DNA of 64,000 bases from a bacterium (GTDB lineage Bacteria; Joyebacterota; Joyebacteria; Joyebacterales; Joyebacteraceae): positions 87,556-151,555 of the forward strand of contig JALGZD010000218.1 in NCBI GenBank assembly GCA_025782395.1. The letters are read 5' to 3'. A program made the translations under genes and the position numbers. Shown in pieces: positions 18,076 through 64,000 of the stretch. The notes beneath the pieces are model-generated. The model was not told where the DNA came from. It made no database searches and saw only the letters and a program-made list of their open reading frames with translations. Positions within the stretch are counted from its first letter, which is position 1; every line of letters starts with the position of its first letter.

Positions 18076-18154
18076 TACTCCTCCAACAGGAGGAGCCTAC
18101 TCCTCCAACGAGAGGAGCCCACTCCTCCAACGAGAGGAGCCTACTCCACCGTCC
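18076..18154. repeat. 3.5 tandem copies of a 22-bp palindromic unit (TACTCCTCCAACGAGAGGAGCC) between obg and dprA
   Basis: Units at 18076-18097, 18098-18119 and 18120-18141, plus a partial copy. Each contains CTCCTC/GAGGAG inverted arms. The obg stop (TAG at 18141-18143) lies in the last unit. Confidence 0.8.
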
Positions 18155-26282: not shown

Positions 26283-26386
26283 AGTCGCCCAGCGGGCGGA
26301 CCACTCGGCCTATCGGAGGACAGCCGCTCAGGGAGAGAAACGATATATGCCAGCGGGTAGCGAGACAGGGAGGAAAACACGCGATC

Positions 26387-26452
26387 CTTGTGGGGTAACG
26401 ACAAGGGGAAGATGCCCGATGCTTGTGGGACAACGACAGGAGACAGATGCCC
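26387..26452. repeat. two tandem imperfect ~35-bp direct repeats, each with hairpin potential, upstream of comEA
   Basis: CTTGTGGGGTAACGACAAGGGGAAGATGCCC (26387-26417) and CTTGTGGGACAACGACAGGAGACAGATGCCC (26422-26452). CCTTGT/ACAAGG inverted arms within each copy. Confidence 0.7.
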
Positions 26453-38362: not shown

Positions 38363-40423
<2,061 letters not shown>

Positions 40424-40425
40424 TC

Positions 40426-40501
40426 AGAATTCGCGGATCAGACCTACGTGCAGCTTGCCGTCCTAGAATTCGCGGATCAGACCTACGTGCAGCTTGCCGT
40501 C
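40426..40501. repeat. tandem duplication (39-bp period) of the 3' end of the Omp85 gene
   Basis: AGAATTCGCGGATCAGACCTACGTGCAGCTTGCCGTC at 40426-40462 and 40465-40501. On the minus strand both copies encode DGKLHVGLIREF followed by a stop (TGA in the distal copy, TAG in the copy that terminates the gene). Confidence 0.85.
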
Positions 40502-42253
40502 GAGGAGGCTGTCACCCTCACCCAGTCCGTAGTCAATTGCGATTGTACCCAAGCGTGTTTGGCCCCGCAACCCGATTCCGTACCCCAGCTTCGTACCCTT
40601 CGCGAAACCGGGACTCTGCCTGTAGAAGTAACCCGCATCGACGAAAACTATCGCCCTCGAAGTCCGCCCAAGCAGAAAGCGGTACTCGATACTGCCGAGC
40701 GCCACCCGGGAGCCACGGAACTGCTCCTCTCTGTAGCCACGCAGGCTGTTCGCGCCGCCGAGCGTGATCTGTTCGTGGAGCGGTATCTCATCCCGGCTCG
40801 AAGCCATCCCGGTGAGTTCAGCGCGCACGGAGATCACCTGAGCCTCCCGGGTCCGGATCAGGATCTCGCAGTCGATCATCAGTGTGCCTGTCCTGTAATG
40901 TTCCTGGCCCTCCCGCACCTCCTGGTCGCGATACTCGAGTCTTCCACCCACGCGGGCGCCCCGGCGTGGATTCAGCACCTCGTCCCGTGCGTCATATCCA
41001 GCCTCGATGGCCGTTCTGTAACCTTCTGTGGTCGACTCCTCCGGCCCTCCGGGCACATATCGCTCACTGCCGACCGACCAGGTGACAGTCGTGCGCGGGC
41101 CGAAACGCGCCGACACAAAGAGGTCCGCCTCCATTGTCGTGTAGAGCGTATCTCGTATCACCTGCTCGCCGCGGACCCCGACGTTGATCGGCGCGCCGAA
41201 GAGCCACGGTTCCTCGTATCTGAAGGTGATGCGGTCATGTCTGGACTGCAGCCGCTCCCACGACGCTGCCGCTTTCCGACCTGTGCCGGCTATGTTTCCG
41301 AGATATATGTCGACCAGCCCGGTGAACTCCCCCCCACCGTCCGGGGCGGGAGCGTATCCAAGAAGACCGGATACGCTGTTCACAGGACGCTCGGATACGA
41401 CAATGCCCACGGCCGCGCTCCCGGTCGCAGGATCGACCACGACGACCGGCTCCTGAACGTCTGAGAATATCCCGAGTCGCTCAAGCCGGGGACGGACGGC
41501 CTCCAGTATTCGCGCATCGTAGGCCCGTCCGGGGATGATCCCGGTCTCCCGGACAATCACTTCGCCGTGCGTCAGATCATTTCCGGAGAGAAACACCTGT
41601 CCGAAACGAGTGGCCAGGTTCTCGTGGACGCCCAGCTCCAGCGTAGGGCGTTCACCTCTCCGGGCAACCGAGATCCCGGGAGTAACGGCTGCAAAGGGAC
41701 GGCCGGTCGCAGCGTACCAGTCCAGGATCGAGTAGACATCGTCCTCAAGCGACATCAGGCTGAGCACATCTCCAGAACCGAGCTCCATCTGTCGCCTGAC
41801 CGCCGCCTCGTGCACCTCGTCTACACCCGTCAGGCGAACGACGTCCAGCCTGCCATCGGGACCTTCGTCTATCTCCACACGGACCAGAAGACCATCGGGG
41901 CCGTTCATCCAGTCCATCTCCACTCGACCGAATGGACGGCCGCGCATGACGAGCAGCGCGAGGAGCGAATCGGCTCCTGCGCGGGCGTGCGCAATGTCGA
42001 ACACGTCGCCGGGTCCGAGATCGAGCGCCTTCACAGCTTCTCGGCGACTCACGCTCTCGTAGCCTTCGATCTCGACGCGCGCGATCACGATGCTGGTGGA
42101 GGCCTCGACGCCGACGGATGAGTCGGACGCCTCCACATGAGCCCCGAATCCGAGAAGCGAACAAAACAGCGCGGCGACGATCACGCGCCCATACAGCGGG
42201 CGGCGTCTCTCGACCACCGAGTTCAGACTTCCTGCTGTGCTAGAAGAACGCAT
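40463..42253 (-). CDS. Omp85-family outer membrane protein (POTRA repeats plus surface-antigen D15 barrel; TamA/TpsB-sized)
   Basis: 596 aa. Signal peptide. C-terminal beta-signal ...GKLHVGLIREF with terminal Phe. Barrel motif region GANSLRGY. Start overlaps the upstream 1137-aa gene by 14 bp. Confidence 0.7.
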   Translation of the reverse strand: MRSSSTAGSLNSVVERRRPLYGRVIVAALFCSLLGFGAHVEASDSSVGVEASTSIVIARVEIEGYESVSRREAVKALDLGPGDVFDIAHARAGADSLLALLVMRGRPFGRVEMDWMNGPDGLLVRVEIDEGPDGRLDVVRLTGVDEVHEAAVRRQMELGSGDVLSLMSLEDDVYSILDWYAATGRPFAAVTPGISVARRGERPTLELGVHENLATRFGQVFLSGNDLTHGEVIVRETGIIPGRAYDARILEAVRPRLERLGIFSDVQEPVVVVDPATGSAAVGIVVSERPVNSVSGLLGYAPAPDGGGEFTGLVDIYLGNIAGTGRKAAASWERLQSRHDRITFRYEEPWLFGAPINVGVRGEQVIRDTLYTTMEADLFVSARFGPRTTVTWSVGSERYVPGGPEESTTEGYRTAIEAGYDARDEVLNPRRGARVGGRLEYRDQEVREGQEHYRTGTLMIDCEILIRTREAQVISVRAELTGMASSRDEIPLHEQITLGGANSLRGYREEQFRGSRVALGSIEYRFLLGRTSRAIVFVDAGYFYRQSPGFAKGTKLGYGIGLRGQTRLGTIAIDYGLGEGDSLLDGKLHVGLIREF

Positions 42254-45200
42254 TGAGCCTCATGTCGACCGTATGCCTCGCATCGGCATCCGGACGCCTT
42301 TCTCCCGAGTAGGTCACAGTTCCCGTCAGGAACCTGTTGAATCTGTAGTCACCGGAGAGCCTCCATTCAGCCGAAGCTCCGGCTTGCCGTCCATCCGCCA
42401 TGTAGTCCGGCAGCGCTCCGCCTGAGGCTTCCACTCCGGTGCGGGTCAAGCTTGCACTCACGGCACCTCGCCCCTTGAGGCGATAGATCAGCGTCGGCGT
42501 GATCTGCCAGACTCCAACGTCGACGCCGGAGACTGCGTCGCTCTCAACCCCATAGAGCGCAGTCAGCTTGATCTCGGCTCCACCGAGCTGTCTCTTGCCC
42601 ACCTCAGCGAGGACGCAGCGTTCATCCAGATCGTAGTCATTGAGGCTGCCGCCGGCCTCCCGCGCCCTCACGGCAGCGTCTACCTGAACACGATACGCAA
42701 TTCCACCCGGTGGGGAGACCTTGAGTTCAAGAGCCCCGCTCCGCTCCTTCAGTTCCTCCGGAGAGTTGGTGTAGACACGATCCAAGCGGTCACGCGTCTT
42801 GACAGCCAGGCGCGCCGAGAGAACTCCGCTCGTCGCATACCTCACGACGTGGCGTCCCGTCAGCTCCCCGGTGACCGTGTCCTCTCCTCTGAGCACAGAC
42901 GGATCCAGAAGGTAGAGGCGCGTCTTGTCACTGGTCGTCGTAGATTCCCTGAGCTTCAGGCTGCTCTCGAGCGACAGGCCCGTCAGAAAACGCCTCAACG
43001 CGCTGGGATCGGGCGTCCACCGCTCGTCCCGGCGACTGCTCCCGAAGCGAAGCGACCACCTGGTCCCGACAGACAGCTCCGTCACGGGCAGGAAGTTGCC
43101 GGTAGAGACGATGCGCGTCACTTCAACGCCGTCCTCCTCGGTCACGAACCGTTCCTTCTCCTCCACCTCGGTCGCCGTGACCGAGTACTTGAGCTCTCCC
43201 TTGAGGGCGCCGCTCATCGAGCGATGGCCGAGTGTGATGGCGGCGAGATCGTACCTGGTTCCGGACTCCGCGAGACCCTCGGCGACGTCGGTCCGCCTCC
43301 TCATAACATTGCCTTCGACCGTCAGCGCCTCCCAGCGCCTCAGCTGAGCACTCATCTCCTCTGTTCTGGTCGTGGACGATCCAGCCCAGGTCTTTCCATC
43401 CGAGGTCCGTTCAGTGTCCCGGTAGTTGGCCGCAACTCTGAATCCGATCTCGCCGCTCCCGGAGCTCTCTATCGACGCGCCGTGCTCGACGTAGCGTTCT
43501 CCGTCGTTGTCCTCGACACGGGAGTCATGCCTGTAGCTCAAGCCCGGCCGAACAGGCCCGAATGCGTAGCTCGCACCGGCGCGGTAGAACTCTCGTTCCC
43601 TCCGAAGCGAGGAGTCGGCCGAGACCCTGTGCCTCAAGTCAACGAAGCAGCCGCCGGCCCACACACTCCCGTTCTCGAGAGGGCTTGCCAACATGGAGAA
43701 CTCCATTCGATTCGACTCGAGCGCATCAGCGCGCTTGAGAAGGCCTCGAGACAGCTCAATGGCGCCCCCGCCCGGCAGAGAAAGGGCCAGTTCCCCTTCA
43801 CCCAGAACCTCTGCCTCAGGCAGGTCAAGACCCTTGAGCTCCCACGTCTCCTCGTAGCGGACATCTCTGAAGCGACCCACTCCCTCGAAGCTGCCCCCAA
43901 CGCGCCTGCCGACAAAGCCCACGGTGGCCTCAGCTCCGCCGAGGAAGCCGATCCGGACGCCGGGCGTGGAGGCGCGCAGCACGCTCGCGTTTCCCAGATT
44001 GTCGTCGTCATCCAGATCGGAGAAGGTGTTCCGGTCGAAACTTGAGACGGCGGCCTCGGCAGAAACGAATCCGTCCCTTCCGAATTCCCACCGGCCGTCG
44101 AGCGCCGCGACAGCTTTGTCCTGGGGCATGGGGAGTGCCTTGCCCAGACGGAACTCACCTTCATTCTCACCCACGTAGTAGTAGAAACCACCGAGGTAAT
44201 CGAAACCGTATCCGCCGCCGCTGCTCCGTTCAAAACTCAGATCATAGACCCCCGAATCGGCTCCCGCGTATTCGAAGTAACCCTCTTGAGTCAGCGTGTA
44301 GTCCCCGTTGCCGATCCCGAGCGAATCGATGCCGTCATCGTGAGCCAGCTCGATATCGTCTCCCGCCGCCTCGAGGACGGCTATCTGGCCTTCAGTGAGA
44401 GTGGCGGACGCAGCATCTCCGCGGTCGTCCGACTCGCGGAAGAACCCGGCTCCGATGACGAACTCCCCGTCACCCGCAGTGAAGGTCGCTCTTCCCCCAT
44501 AGATGTCTCTGTCGTAATCGCTGGTGGCGTACTCGTAGTCGATGACAATCTCGCTGTCGCTCGTAATGTGCCGGCGCTCAGTGAACTCGATCTCGCCCGC
44601 GGTGTACTCAATTGTGTAGTCGTTGTCCTTTCCCCGCCTGAGCCTCTCCCCGTCGAGCCAGATGCGCTCGCTTCCCGCCACCACCGTTATCCGGGTCGCA
44701 CCACCTCTGTCGGTAAGAAGATAGGGGCCCTGTTTCCCCGCAGTCCCGCGGAATGTCAGGCTTGCGTACTCGCCGTCGGCGCGCGCGCCGGCCAGCACGA
44801 TCGCCGCCCTGCCCACTTCTCCGCTGACCGTCACACCGGACAGATCCCGTCTCACATCCAGGAGGCTCCCTCCGTCTATCTCGAGGATGTAGTCACCCAT
44901 TGTGGCCGCCACGCGCTCGCCCTCGATCTCGACGAGCACCTTGTCGAGCGAACGAAGCTCCTCCGTGTCCCCCTCCGGAATGAGCGGCGTGTTCTGATCT
45001 GAGAGGTAGGCGGTGACGCTCACGTCGCGCGTTATCCTGCCTGAGATGTTGAGTCGCAGCGACTGCTCCAGCCTGAGGTCGCGGTCGGATCCCACCGTGA
45101 TTCCGAAGGTCTTGGCGCCGCCGACTTTGAGGGACGTCGATCTCGTCCCGGCGGCTGAGCCGCCCCCCGTTGCCGCGACGACCATCTCCCCCGGCCCGCC

Positions 45201-45653
45201 CCCATCGGCATCAGGCTGCCTGGCGGCATAGGCCGCCCCCGAGTCGGGTGTCCCTCCGGCCCGCAGGAATAGATCGGGTAGTTGTGCCGACGAGTCGATG
45301 ACCGACCGGCGGTAGACGCCGTGAGCCGGGATGGGATAGTAACGGTAGCGGAGGATGATCAGAGCACTCTCGGAGACAGCGACAGAAAGCGCCAGTTGCC
45401 CGGTCGCGTAATCGATGACGTAGTCGCGTCCGCGTTCTGCCGCCAGCCCGTCAATGAAAAGGGAATCGCTGCCGGCGAAGATAAGCGCGTCCGGAAGAGC
45501 GATACCAAGAACGGCCTCAGCCCCCGAGAACGCAAGTTCCCGTTCACCGCTTACGGCTGAAAGGTGACCGGCACGGACGCCCTGGGCCAACGTCACGAAA
45601 AGAACGAGAGACACAAGAAGCACTGCCGGCGCGGGGCGTCGGGTTCTATTCAT
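42240..45653 (-). CDS. very large secreted beta-rich protein (TamB/AsmA-like or TpsA-like partner of the downstream Omp85), unknown function
   Basis: 1137 aa. N-terminal signal or anchor MNRTRRPAPAVLLVSLVLFVTLAQG. D/G/S/T/Y-rich amphipathic strand pattern throughout. Ends ...RLNAFF. Confidence 0.5.
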   Translation of the reverse strand: MNRTRRPAPAVLLVSLVLFVTLAQGVRAGHLSAVSGERELAFSGAEAVLGIALPDALIFAGSDSLFIDGLAAERGRDYVIDYATGQLALSVAVSESALIILRYRYYPIPAHGVYRRSVIDSSAQLPDLFLRAGGTPDSGAAYAARQPDADGGGPGEMVVAATGGGSAAGTRSTSLKVGGAKTFGITVGSDRDLRLEQSLRLNISGRITRDVSVTAYLSDQNTPLIPEGDTEELRSLDKVLVEIEGERVAATMGDYILEIDGGSLLDVRRDLSGVTVSGEVGRAAIVLAGARADGEYASLTFRGTAGKQGPYLLTDRGGATRITVVAGSERIWLDGERLRRGKDNDYTIEYTAGEIEFTERRHITSDSEIVIDYEYATSDYDRDIYGGRATFTAGDGEFVIGAGFFRESDDRGDAASATLTEGQIAVLEAAGDDIELAHDDGIDSLGIGNGDYTLTQEGYFEYAGADSGVYDLSFERSSGGGYGFDYLGGFYYYVGENEGEFRLGKALPMPQDKAVAALDGRWEFGRDGFVSAEAAVSSFDRNTFSDLDDDDNLGNASVLRASTPGVRIGFLGGAEATVGFVGRRVGGSFEGVGRFRDVRYEETWELKGLDLPEAEVLGEGELALSLPGGGAIELSRGLLKRADALESNRMEFSMLASPLENGSVWAGGCFVDLRHRVSADSSLRREREFYRAGASYAFGPVRPGLSYRHDSRVEDNDGERYVEHGASIESSGSGEIGFRVAANYRDTERTSDGKTWAGSSTTRTEEMSAQLRRWEALTVEGNVMRRRTDVAEGLAESGTRYDLAAITLGHRSMSGALKGELKYSVTATEVEEKERFVTEEDGVEVTRIVSTGNFLPVTELSVGTRWSLRFGSSRRDERWTPDPSALRRFLTGLSLESSLKLRESTTTSDKTRLYLLDPSVLRGEDTVTGELTGRHVVRYATSGVLSARLAVKTRDRLDRVYTNSPEELKERSGALELKVSPPGGIAYRVQVDAAVRAREAGGSLNDYDLDERCVLAEVGKRQLGGAEIKLTALYGVESDAVSGVDVGVWQITPTLIYRLKGRGAVSASLTRTGVEASGGALPDYMADGRQAGASAEWRLSGDYRFNRFLTGTVTYSGERRPDADARHTVDMRLNAFF

Positions 45654-46681: not shown

Positions 46682-47557
46682 CTAGAACGACATCTCGAGC
46701 GTCACCCGGCTGCCCGGAGATCCGTCATCGTCTACGACGGGCGCAACGAAGAGCCTGGCGTGTGGCTCGTTCTTGAGGCCCTGGTTGTGCCGACGCGCCA
46801 TCCAGGCGCTGTCGATGCTGCTTATCGCGCGATTCAGGATCGCGAGCCCGATCATGTGGAACGCGTTCTTGCGCGAAAGCGATGCGCTGTGGCGAAGATC
46901 CAGGTACTCGGAGAACCGTCCGCTACTCTCCCATTCCCAACCTGCGTCCCCAAAGTAGCCGTGTTGTGCGAAGTACTCACTCTGGGCATCCAGGTCATCT
47001 GGATAGAGACTGCGCGCCTCGCTCCTGATCCCCTCATTGTAGCTGTCCTCACCCTCGCTGCGGATGTAGTCGGCGATGTCCCGATAGTACTCACTCGTCG
47101 AGCCTCTGGGCACACCGGCGAAGATGGAGGCGAATTCCTTGTAGTCGTCCTCGCGCATACTCCCCTGGATCTCGAACGAAGCGTACCCAACCCAGATGGC
47201 GCCCTCGGCAGCCATGAAGGCCTTTCCACGACCATCGTTCCCCGTGTACATCTCCCCCCAGCCGGGTAAAACCATGGACATGAGCAGAGCGACCATCGGA
47301 TTCTTCATATCTGTGCCGGACTCTGACGCGGGAACTCTCCTGCCTCTCCCACTCGAGCTGAAATCAGCCGTGCTTCCGATCTCATTCAGGGAGAGCCCGT
47401 CCATCTCGAGTTCCACGCGCGCGCCGTACGCATGCGGAAGATCAGTGGTCACTACGGCCGACGCGGCTCCGGGTAGAAGATCAGCGGTGAGTACGGCCGA
47501 TGCGGCTCCGGGTATGAGCACGGCCATGGCCAAGAGAGCTGTAACGGTGCGATTCAT
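46682..47557 (-). CDS. secreted hypothetical protein, paralog A (shares PG.GE hydrophobic-helix motif and C-terminal region with 47569-48414)
   Basis: 291 aa. Signal peptide. Internal 13-aa tandem duplication IPGAASAVLTADL/LPGAASAVVTTDL. Motif LLMSMVLPGWGEMYTGNDGRGKAFMAAEGAIWVGYASFE. Confidence 0.5.
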   Translation of the reverse strand: MNRTVTALLAMAVLIPGAASAVLTADLLPGAASAVVTTDLPHAYGARVELEMDGLSLNEIGSTADFSSSGRGRRVPASESGTDMKNPMVALLMSMVLPGWGEMYTGNDGRGKAFMAAEGAIWVGYASFEIQGSMREDDYKEFASIFAGVPRGSTSEYYRDIADYIRSEGEDSYNEGIRSEARSLYPDDLDAQSEYFAQHGYFGDAGWEWESSGRFSEYLDLRHSASLSRKNAFHMIGLAILNRAISSIDSAWMARRHNQGLKNEPHARLFVAPVVDDDGSPGSRVTLEMSF

Positions 47558-63022: not shown

Positions 63023-63676
63023 CTATCTCTCGTCTCGATCTGCGTTCGGCTTTGTCTTCGGCTCTCTCTCCGGCGTCTCGTAGTTGGCGATTACCCAATC
63101 GGCCAGTTCGACCAGGTTGTCGCGCCCGCTCTTCGCGAACTCGTGTCGCATTTCGAAAACGGTCTCTTCCAGCATGCGCCCCCAGTCGGCGGCATCCAGA
63201 GAAAGCTCCACGAACGTCCGGCAGACGGGGCCTCCGACCCAACGATCCGGAAACCCGTCATAGGCGCGGCCGGTCTCGCAGTCCTCAAAGTAGACCCGGT
63301 CCAGACGCGCTGCTTCTATCAGGTGGCCCGCATAGGACTCAAGTCCCCGTTCTTTGAACTCCACTCTATCAATCGACGTCAGCTCTATACCGCTCCCTCT
63401 TATCGCTCCCGAGAAAACTCTTGTGAAGTCCGTCCGTGACTTCCTGGTGATCTGGGAAAAGACGTCCGCCCGTGCCAGCTCAACGCTCTCCGCCGGTCCG
63501 GCCGCCATCGAGCATCCGCCGACGTAGATGTCCCGTCCATCGGCTGTGGGGTGCACCATGCGGACCCACTCCGGCAGTGGCGACGCGCCACCCGACACCT
63601 GTGTCCCGTGGCCGGCACACCCAGGAAGTGCCACAGCCACAATGATTGCGATAAGAAGTGCAGCAACACGAGTCAT
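63023..63676 (-). CDS. lipoprotein, unknown function
   Basis: About 217 aa from the internal ATG (MTRVAALLIAIIVAVALPGCAG lipobox). The upstream 78 codons of the listed ORF are Arg/Gly-rich and probably non-coding. Confidence 0.45.
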   Translation of the reverse strand: MTRVAALLIAIIVAVALPGCAGHGTQVSGGASPLPEWVRMVHPTADGRDIYVGGCSMAAGPAESVELARADVFSQITRKSRTDFTRVFSGAIRGSGIELTSIDRVEFKERGLESYAGHLIEAARLDRVYFEDCETGRAYDGFPDRWVGGPVCRTFVELSLDAADWGRMLEETVFEMRHEFAKSGRDNLVELADWVIANYETPEREPKTKPNADRDER

Positions 63677-63745
63677 GGGGATCCCTCCTGGCCTGTGTGG
63701 TGTTCCCGATTGAGTGGCGTGCCCGTCAACCGGTCTCTCTCTGCT

Positions 63746-63809
63746 GCTCTGCCTGATCCGCCTGGCAGTATACCCCGCTCCTCTGCCTGATCCGCCTGGC
63801 AGTATACCC
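63746..63809. repeat. two tandem 30-bp direct repeats (34-bp period) CTCTGCCTGATCCGCCTGGCAGTATACCCC
   Basis: Exact copies at 63746-63775 and 63780-63809. Minus-strand reading of each contains TATACT. Located between the rRNA terminator and the lipoprotein gene. Confidence 0.8.
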
Positions 63810-63825
63810 CACCCGCGGACAAAGA

Positions 63826-63860
63826 AGAACCCCCTCTGCCTTTCGGCGAAGGGGGTTCGT
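63826..63860 (-). terminator. rho-independent terminator downstream of the 5S rRNA (minus strand)
   Basis: Minus-strand RNA GAACCCCCUUCGCCGAAAGGCAGAGGGGGUUC followed by UUCUUCUUUGU. Confidence 0.65.
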
Positions 63861-63865
63861 ACGTT

Positions 63866-64000
63866 CCGGCGGCGTCCTACTCTCCCGCAAGGTCGCCCGA
63901 GCAGTACCATCGGCGCTGGAGGGCTTAACTACTGTGTTCGAAATGGTAACAGGTGTGACCCCTCCGCCATTGCCACCGAAACAATTCGCGCCGCCATGAC
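63866..64000 (-). rRNA. rrf: 5S ribosomal RNA (3' part certain; 5' end at or near the window edge)
   Basis: Plus-strand text CCTACTCTCCCGC...ACCATCGGCGCT...GTTCGAAATGG...CAGGTG...CCACCG is the reverse complement of conserved 5S segments (CGCCGAUGGU, CCAUUUCGAAC, CACCUG). Helix I GGCGGCG/CGCCGCC closes at 63866-63874 and 63987-63995. Confidence 0.7.

What the first reader, a model, noticed from the sequence alone, without database searches (positions are those of the whole stretch)
40426..40501. Tandem duplication of the last 39 bp of the Omp85 gene: beta-signal peptide and stop codon encoded twice
Both copies read DGKLHVGLIREF-stop in the gene's frame on the minus strand. The proximal copy (40465-40501) ends the gene at TAG; the distal copy (40426-40462) follows it and ends at TGA.

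The duplicated segment is the C-terminal beta-strand that Omp85/OMP biogenesis depends on. A point change in the first stop would append an exact second beta-signal.

This is most likely a recent slipped-strand duplication. It also creates two EcoRI-like GAATTC sites 39 bp apart. It could be an assembly artefact, or a terminator-free buffer before ligA.
Basis: seen in the sequence. Interest (0 to 1): 0.55.

Follow-up and report, generated by a model that had tools for sequence, protein, structure and literature searches.

The report
Young 39-base duplication ending Omp85 gene
The last 12 codons and stop codon of an outer-membrane-assembly (Omp85) gene are repeated once more directly after the gene; this is a young duplication found only in this genome, it leaves the protein unchanged, and it looks like an ordinary mutational footprint rather than a device.

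Summary
Two exact 37-nt copies (40465-40501 and 40426-40462, minus strand) lie 39 nt apart. Both read DGKLHVGLIREF-stop in the Omp85 frame: TAG ends the gene and TGA ends the untranslated copy. All 36 closest homologues (P0001-P0036) end ...[RN]xF, so copy 1 is the true C-terminus, and a structure model places it on the barrel's last beta-strand. All 23 related loci keep the order Omp85-ligA and carry one copy. The nearest relative has a 54-nt spacer; the window has 93 nt, which is 54 + 39. Both copies share this lineage's own synonymous states, so the duplication is recent and private. I found no start codon, promoter, terminator, RNA family or stable fold in it. The best reading is a neutral short tandem duplication that lengthens the Omp85-ligA spacer. 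The same window holds older 34-39-nt tandem duplications, and the sister clade has a 28-29-nt variable-number repeat in the same spacer. Two points stay open. The units differ in their last two bases (AG versus GA) and have no flanking microhomology, so simple slippage is not shown. No conspecific assembly or reads were available, so an assembly artefact is not excluded (about 15%). Interest is low.

The parts
40463..42253 (-). Omp85-family gene. The longest ORF is 596 aa from an ATG. NCBI and JGI call a 584-aa product from the GTG at 42217. It has POTRA repeats plus a 16-strand barrel.
   Evidence: Pfam Omp85 E 5.5e-21 and POTRA E 5.5e-18. AlphaFold model pLDDT 82, and the best PDB matches are BamA and TamA. 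It scores below NCBIfam's BamA and TamA equivalog cut-offs.
40465..40501 (-). Copy 1 of the 37-nt repeat. It encodes D585-F596 (DGKLHVGLIREF) plus the T of the TAG stop. This is the authentic C-terminus.
   Evidence: All 36 closest homologues (P0001-P0036) end at this position with ...[RN]xF. Residues 587-593 form the last beta-strand in the model.
40463..40465 (-). TAG, the functional stop codon of the Omp85 gene. The closest relatives have the same stop.
40426..40462 (-). Copy 2 of the 37-nt repeat. It is in frame but lies after the stop, has no ATG/GTG/TTG codon in that frame, and is untranslated intercistronic DNA.
   Evidence: It is absent from all 23 related loci.
40424..40426 (-). TGA, the second in-frame stop that ends copy 2. 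Together with copy 2 it makes up the 39-nt insertion (40424-40462) relative to the nearest relative.
40370..40462 (-). Omp85-ligA spacer of 93 nt, made of the 39-nt insertion plus the 54 nt seen in the nearest relative. It contains the conserved ligA Shine-Dalgarno-like GGAAGGAG (about 40382-40389).
   Evidence: No promoter- or terminator-like site. Fold z-score +1.8. No relevant Rfam match.
38363..40369 (-). ligA (NAD-dependent DNA ligase, 668 aa from the conserved ATG). It is the downstream co-directional gene.
   Evidence: Pfam DNA_ligase_aden E 2e-92 and further domains. Relatives have the same 668-aa product.

Best explanation
This is a genuine, evolutionarily young, effectively neutral short tandem duplication. 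A 39-nt segment (the last 12 codons of the Omp85 gene plus a stop) was inserted directly behind the gene's TAG stop. The protein is unchanged: it still ends ...DGKLHVGLIREF at the first stop. The second copy is untranslated and only lengthens the Omp85-ligA intercistronic spacer from 54 to 93 nt.

Shown: the anatomy, the single-copy state in all relatives, the lineage-specific identity of the two copies, and the lack of coding or regulatory signals in copy 2.

Inferred: that the event was a replication or repair duplication. I also infer that the AG-to-GA difference at the end of copy 2 is one clustered event. It turns TCTAGTCC into TCTGATCC, an exact copy of an 8-mer 17 nt upstream inside the repeat, which would fit templated misalignment. 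Neutrality is also inferred.
For: - Repeat: two exact 37-nt copies, period 39, with 0 matches in shuffles.
- Reading frame...REF*DGKLHVGLIREF*.
- Copy 1 is the native end. All 36 closest homologues (P0001-P0036) end at this point with ...[RN]xF, F596 is invariant across the 35-sequence alignment, and the last strand is residues 587-593.
- Relatives: 9 loci of close relatives plus 14 loci from pattern scans of genome and metagenome collections each have one copy.
- Nearest relative: L001 (about 86% nt identity) aligns with a clean 39-nt gap and has a 54-nt spacer against 93 nt here.
- Recency: both copies carry AAG and GAA where L001 has AAA and GCA, so the copy was made from this lineage's own sequence.
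- Copy 1 plus TAG matches the relatives' ...TTCTAG. The sequence after copy 2 (TCCCCACT) matches what follows the stop in L003-L009.
- No signals: no in-frame start codon, no promoter or terminator, no stable fold (z +1.8), no Rfam family, no tRNA in the window.
- Similar events in the lineage: older diverged tandem duplications of 34-39 nt in the same window, at 47437-47514 (90%) and 63743-63810 (97%).
- The sister clade has a 28-29-nt repeat of 2-5 copies in the same spacer, seen in independent assemblies.
Against: - The sequence is not the product of a simple slippage event. The units differ at two adjacent bases (AG versus GA), and there is no microhomology between the unit end and the sequence before the unit.
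- If two independent substitutions had hit a 39-nt unit, only 1 of 741 position pairs would be this one. A single complex event, or another origin, must therefore be assumed.
- No reads and no second assembly of the same species were available. The 90% protein cluster holds only the source contig, Ga0451374_89800. The two-copy state therefore rests on one assembly.
Confidence: 0.75

Rival explanations
1. Assembly or scaffolding artefact. The true genome has one copy. Two contig ends that overlapped by the 37-nt segment, and disagreed at a TAG/TGA strain variant, were abutted instead of merged.
For: - The copies are perfectly identical and the structure occurs on a single metagenome contig with no independent assembly.
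- The only difference, AG versus GA, sits exactly at the copy borders, as expected if a strain variant (TAG versus TGA stop) blocked overlap merging.
- TGA is used at this position by more distant relatives.
Against: - The whole structure is only 76 nt. Ordinary short reads and the large k-mers of current metagenome assemblers span it, and a de Bruijn graph cannot create the junction TTCTAG|GACGGC unless reads contain it. This rests on my own knowledge, because the assembler used for this sample was not identified.
- There are no Ns and no other exact duplications in the 64 kb.
- The window holds comparable but diverged 34-39-nt tandem duplications, which cannot be artefacts.
- Relatives show exact 29-nt x3 arrays in the same spacer in independent assemblies.
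Confidence: 0.15
2. The duplication is functional. It could be a spare terminal strand used after amber read-through or stop-codon loss, giving Omp85 a 13-residue extension that ends in the same beta-signal-like strand. Alternatively it could be a selected spacer that uncouples ligA from Omp85 translation or transcription.
For: - Copy 2 is exactly in frame, since the period is 13 codons, and it ends in its own stop.
- The sister clade also enlarged this same spacer with tandem repeats.
Against: - It is private to one genome, and all 23 relatives lack it.
- It is too young to show any signature of selection.
- There is no suppressor tRNA in the window and no start codon for independent translation.
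- No promoter, terminator, structure or RNA family was found.
- The ligA ribosome-binding region is unchanged.
- Tandem repeats occur at about 1 per 13 kb in this window, so a second repeat in the same spacer of a sister clade is roughly a 1-in-10 coincidence.
Confidence: 0.06
3. Footprint of a mobile element. An integrative element or transposon that targets the gene's 3' end duplicated the target and then left.
For: Integrative elements commonly duplicate the 3' end of their target gene (own knowledge). The two copies are separated by 2 nt that match neither flank.
Against: - Only 2 nt lie between the copies, and those two bases are the ancestral stop codon's AG.
- Excision of such elements restores a single site, and transposon target duplications are far shorter than 37 nt (own knowledge).
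- No other copy of the segment exists in the window.
Confidence: 0.02

Closest known systems
Short tandem duplications / variable-number tandem repeats in bacterial intergenic DNA (replication slippage or repair duplications)
   Same: Head-to-tail, two units, period of tens of bases, and absent from relatives. The same genome has older 34-39-nt examples, and the sister clade has a 28-29-nt, 2-5-copy array in the very same spacer.
   Different: The unit straddles a gene end, so a coding strand and its stop are duplicated. There is no flanking microhomology, and the junction carries a 2-nt difference, so textbook slippage is not demonstrated.
C-terminal beta-signal of outer-membrane beta-barrel proteins (consensus zeta-x-G-x-x-[aromatic/hydrophobic]-x-[aromatic/hydrophobic], PMC10945584)
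   Same: The duplicated peptide is the last barrel strand. It ends in a Phe that is invariant across the 35-sequence alignment and has the polar-x-Gly start (H-V-G).
   Different: Position -2 is Arg rather than aromatic or hydrophobic. [quoted passage not shown] Recognition by an assembly machine was not tested here. The second copy is not translated.
Tandem ('backup') in-frame stop codons downstream of genes
   Same: A second in-frame stop follows the first, so read-through would end after 13 residues.
   Different: Here the second stop is a by-product of the duplication, lies 13 codons away, and shows no sign of selection.
Duplicated contig-overlap artefacts in draft assemblies
   Same: Exact adjacent copies of a few tens of bases on a single metagenome contig.
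   Different: The junction bases equal the ancestral stop codon, the structure is shorter than a read, and diverged natural analogues exist nearby. Read evidence is lacking.

Membership tests
Omp85 superfamily (the gene that carries the duplication) | Omp85 beta-barrel domain with N-terminal POTRA repeat(s) | tested here: met
   Pfam PF01103 75.8 bits (cut-off 24) and PF07244 65.9 bits (cut-off 21.3). The model has POTRA-like domains plus a 16-strand barrel. Foldseek matches BamA and TamA at E about 1e-29 to 1e-27.
BamA or TamA proper (equivalog level) | Score above the curated NCBIfam equivalog cut-off | tested here: not met
   TIGR03303 BamA scores 110.9 bits against a cut-off of 297. NF047950 TamA scores 22.4 against 625. 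I call it an Omp85-family insertase-like protein, not BamA or TamA.
OMP C-terminal beta-signal | Last strand matches zeta-x-G-x-x-[arom/hydrophobic]-x-[arom/hydrophobic] with a terminal aromatic residue | tested here: inconclusive
   HVGLIREF has H (polar), G and terminal F in place, but R at -2 does not fit the consensus from PMC10945584. The terminal F is invariant, and the strand covers 587-593 in the model.
OMP C-terminal beta-signal | Recognised by the assembly machinery and required for assembly | not testable with these tools
   This needs mutagenesis or assembly assays.
Short tandem duplication | Adjacent head-to-tail copies with one constant period | tested here: met
   Period 39, 1.9 copies, 100% matches. 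Exact 37-mers at a spacing of 39.
Short tandem duplication | Derived state: relatives carry a single unit at the same site | tested here: met
   All 23 related loci have one copy. The alignment with L001 shows a clean 39-nt gap.
Slipped-strand (microhomology-primed) duplication specifically | Short direct repeat (microhomology) at the unit borders and identical units | tested here: not met
   The unit is preceded by ..CTC, ends ..TAG, and is followed by TCC. The units differ as AG versus GA.
Assembly artefact | Junction not supported by reads | not testable with these tools
   No reads are available. The only contig carrying this gene, or the flanking thiC, is the source contig Ga0451374_89800.
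att-site duplication by an integrative element | Element (integrase and cargo) between the two copies | tested here: not met
   Only 2 nt (AG of the stop) separate the copies.

The most novel reading that the evidence does not exclude
The second copy is not inert. In one version, low-level amber read-through or a single TAG-to-sense mutation yields an Omp85 insertase with a 13-residue extension ending in an identical terminal strand. That would be a natural 'spare beta-signal' that keeps the protein assembly-competent after stop-codon failure. In another version, duplication followed by recombinational collapse between the copies is a one-step route that swaps the gene's stop codon from TAG to TGA.
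Probability: 0.04. Interest if true: 0.4.

Novelty: new member of a known kind. Interest (0 to 1): 0.12.

Why it matters
It matters little beyond annotation hygiene. The duplication does not alter the Omp85 protein. It shows that this uncultured lineage (relatives are labelled Candidatus Eisenbacteria) readily makes 30-40-nt tandem duplications, and that the Omp85-ligA spacer tolerates length change. Its practical value is as a strain marker and as a caution for gene callers and variant callers at this locus. If the read-through reading were true, it would give a natural construct for asking whether an Omp85 protein tolerates a displaced or doubled terminal strand. Nothing here points that way.

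Tried and rejected
- Independent assemblies of the same strain. I made exact-protein look-ups for the 596-aa ORF, the 584-aa call, ligA and thiC and a cluster look-up. Only the source contig (JGI 3300040951, Ga0451374_89800) exists, so one versus two copies within the species could not be tested.
- Recurrence of the phenomenon. A degenerate pattern for DGKLHVGLIREF-stop, scanned over genome and metagenome collections, found 14 loci, all single-copy.
- Regulatory or RNA role. The promoter/terminator scan found nothing. The RNA fold is weaker than shuffles. Rfam gave no relevant match.
- Suppressor tRNA for read-through. There is no tRNA in the window.
- A donor copy elsewhere with a TGA end. 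There is no other copy at up to 3 mismatches.
- Significance of the EcoRI sites. GAATTC is not avoided (27 observed against 16.6 expected), so I rejected this.
- Literature on the sample. No paper mentions the IMG identifiers.
- Mobile-element footprint. The anatomy rules it out.

Full report
**Observation.**

On the minus strand the sequence reads ...CTC-R-AG-R-GA-TCCCCACTT..., where R is the 37-mer GACGGCAAGCTGCACGTAGGTCTGATCCGCGAATTCT. Tandem Repeats Finder gives 40426-40501, period 39, 1.9 copies, 100% matches, and this is the highest score in the window. The 37-mer occurs exactly twice, at 40465-40501 and 40426-40462. No further copy appears at up to 3 mismatches, and there were no matches in 100 shuffles.

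In the gene's frame the translation is ...GDSLLDGKLHVGLIREF*DGKLHVGLIREF*S. The first stop is TAG (40465-40463) and the second is TGA (40426-40424). The one refinement is that the two 39-nt units differ in their last two bases.

**The gene and its neighbours.**

- ORF 40463..42253(-) carries Pfam Omp85 and POTRA domains. NCBI and JGI call it from a GTG 12 codons further in.
- An AlphaFold model built on 35 homologues (pLDDT 82) shows POTRA-like domains and a 16-strand barrel. Its last strand is residues 587-593, KLHVGLI. The best solved-structure matches are BamA and TamA.
- The protein scores below the NCBIfam equivalog cut-offs for both BamA and TamA. I call it an Omp85-family insertase-like protein.
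- Upstream, overlapping its start by 14 nt, is a 1137-aa ORF with no Pfam domain.
- Downstream are ligA (668 aa from the conserved ATG at 40369) and thiC.
- The order large ORF-Omp85-ligA-thiC is the same in the close relatives that were fetched.

**Which copy is the real end.**

All 36 closest homologues (P0001-P0036) end at the same position with ...[RN]xF, most of them with exactly DGKLHVGLIREF. F596 is an invariant column across the 35-sequence alignment. Copy 1 is therefore the native C-terminus, and copy 2 is extra DNA behind the stop.

The published beta-signal consensus is zeta-x-G-x-x-[aromatic/hydrophobic]-x-[aromatic/hydrophobic] (PMC10945584). HVGLIREF matches it at three of the four defined positions and fails at Arg -2. 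'Beta-signal' is therefore a reasonable label but an untested one.

**Comparison with relatives.**

- Nine loci from close relatives (74-82% protein identity; L001-L009) have one copy followed by TAG.
- A degenerate pattern for the 12 codons plus a stop found 9 further genome loci, two of them labelled Candidatus Eisenbacteria. It also found 5 metagenome loci. Each of these has a single match.
- The nearest relative, L001 (about 86% nucleotide identity over the neighbourhood), has a 54-nt Omp85-ligA spacer. The window has 93 nt, which is 54 + 39. The alignment shows one clean 39-nt gap.
- Copy 1 plus TAG matches the relatives' ...TTCTAG.
- The sequence after copy 2 (TCCCCACT) matches what follows the stop in L003-L009. 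The inserted piece is therefore R + GA, placed between the TAG and TCCCC.
- Both copies carry AAG and GAA where L001 has AAA and GCA. The copy was thus made from this lineage's own sequence, after the split from the nearest relative.
- With 37 of 37 identical bases, the event is much younger than the roughly 14% divergence from L001.

**Mechanism.**

A textbook slippage product would be two identical units bordered by microhomology. Neither condition holds. The unit is preceded by ..CTC, ends in ..TAG, and is followed by TCC, and the units differ as AG versus GA. If the two differences were independent substitutions, only 1 of the 741 possible position pairs in a 39-nt unit would be this one. 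A single clustered event is more plausible.

One detail points to how that event could happen. The change turns TCTAGTCC into TCTGATCC, which is an exact copy of an 8-mer that lies 17 nt upstream inside R (seen directly). That is what transient misalignment on a nearby quasi-repeat would produce. This is inference and is not shown.

The lineage does make such duplications:

- The window contains older, diverged tandem duplications at 47437-47514 (39 nt x2, 90%, an in-frame 13-residue repeat near a protein's N-terminus) and at 63743-63810 (34 nt x2, 97%).
- It also contains two further arrays.
- The sister clade carries a 28-29-nt array of 2 to 5 copies in this same spacer. That includes an exact 3-copy array seen in independent assemblies.

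**Function.**

- Copy 2 has no ATG, GTG or TTG codon in its frame.
- The region has no promoter-like or terminator-like site.
- Its RNA fold is weaker than that of shuffled sequence, with z = +1.8.
- There is no relevant Rfam match, and the window encodes no tRNA.
- The ligA ribosome-binding region is unchanged relative to L001.
- GAATTC is simply Glu-Phe and is not avoided in this genome.

Nothing indicates a role. The only demonstrable consequences are a spacer that is 39 nt longer and a second in-frame stop 13 codons downstream. That is a by-product of an in-frame period, not evidence of design.

**Artefact question.**

The window comes from one metagenome contig, JGI 3300040951 Ga0451374_89800, 153,976 bp. 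No other contig in the collections carries this Omp85 at 90% identity or more, or an identical ligA or thiC. The two-copy state therefore rests on a single assembly and I could not inspect reads.

Several points argue against an artefact:

- The structure is only 76 nt, shorter than a typical read. A k-mer assembler cannot invent the junction (own knowledge; the assembler for this sample is unknown).
- There are no Ns and no other exact duplications.
- Natural diverged analogues sit in the same window.

I put the artefact at about 15%.

**Verdict.**

This is a real-looking, recent, private and probably neutral tandem duplication of a gene's last strand and stop. It is an ordinary kind of mutation in an unusual position, and interest is low.

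Noticed in passing
window 47437-47514 (-): A 39-nt x2 tandem duplication at 90% identity. It is in frame and repeats 13 residues (IPGAASAVLTADL / LPGAASAVVTTDL) just after a signal-peptide-like N-terminus of ORF 46682..47557(-). It has the same period as the finding but is older.
   Followed up: partly
window 63743-63810 and 63864-63980 (-): A 34-nt x2 tandem duplication (97%) lies about 50 nt downstream of a 5S rRNA gene (Rfam RF00001, 95.6 bits). The N-terminal part of ORF 63023..63910(-) that overlaps both is therefore probably spurious.
   Followed up: partly
window 18076-18147 and 26382-26452: Two more intergenic tandem arrays: 22 nt x3.3 at 92%, with a self-complementary GGAG..CTCC core, and 35 nt x2 at 83%.
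   Followed up: no
L002 4794-4934; L003 4860-4916; L007 4855-4941; L009 3605-3661; L011 6886-6972; L018 1304-1444: The sister clade has a 28-29-nt variable-number tandem repeat (2, 3 or 5 copies) in the same Omp85-ligA spacer. Some arrays are 100% identical and were recovered in independent assemblies. Each unit contains a GCGGCC...GGCCGC stem.
   Followed up: partly
window 42240-45653 (-): A 1137-aa ORF overlaps the Omp85 start by 14 nt. It has no Pfam domain and only a sub-threshold SprA-like hit (TIGR04189, 29 bits against a cut-off of 200). Its pairing with the Omp85 gene is conserved in all close relatives, which suggests an uncharacterised partner of this Omp85.
   Followed up: partly
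window 42217-42253 (-): The Omp85 start is ambiguous. The longest ORF starts at the ATG at 42253 (596 aa), whereas NCBI and JGI call the GTG at 42217 (584 aa). Relatives' calls range from 563 to 616 aa.
   Followed up: no
window, whole: GAATTC occurs 27 times against 16.6 +/- 3.9 in shuffles, so it is mildly over-represented rather than avoided.
   Followed up: no
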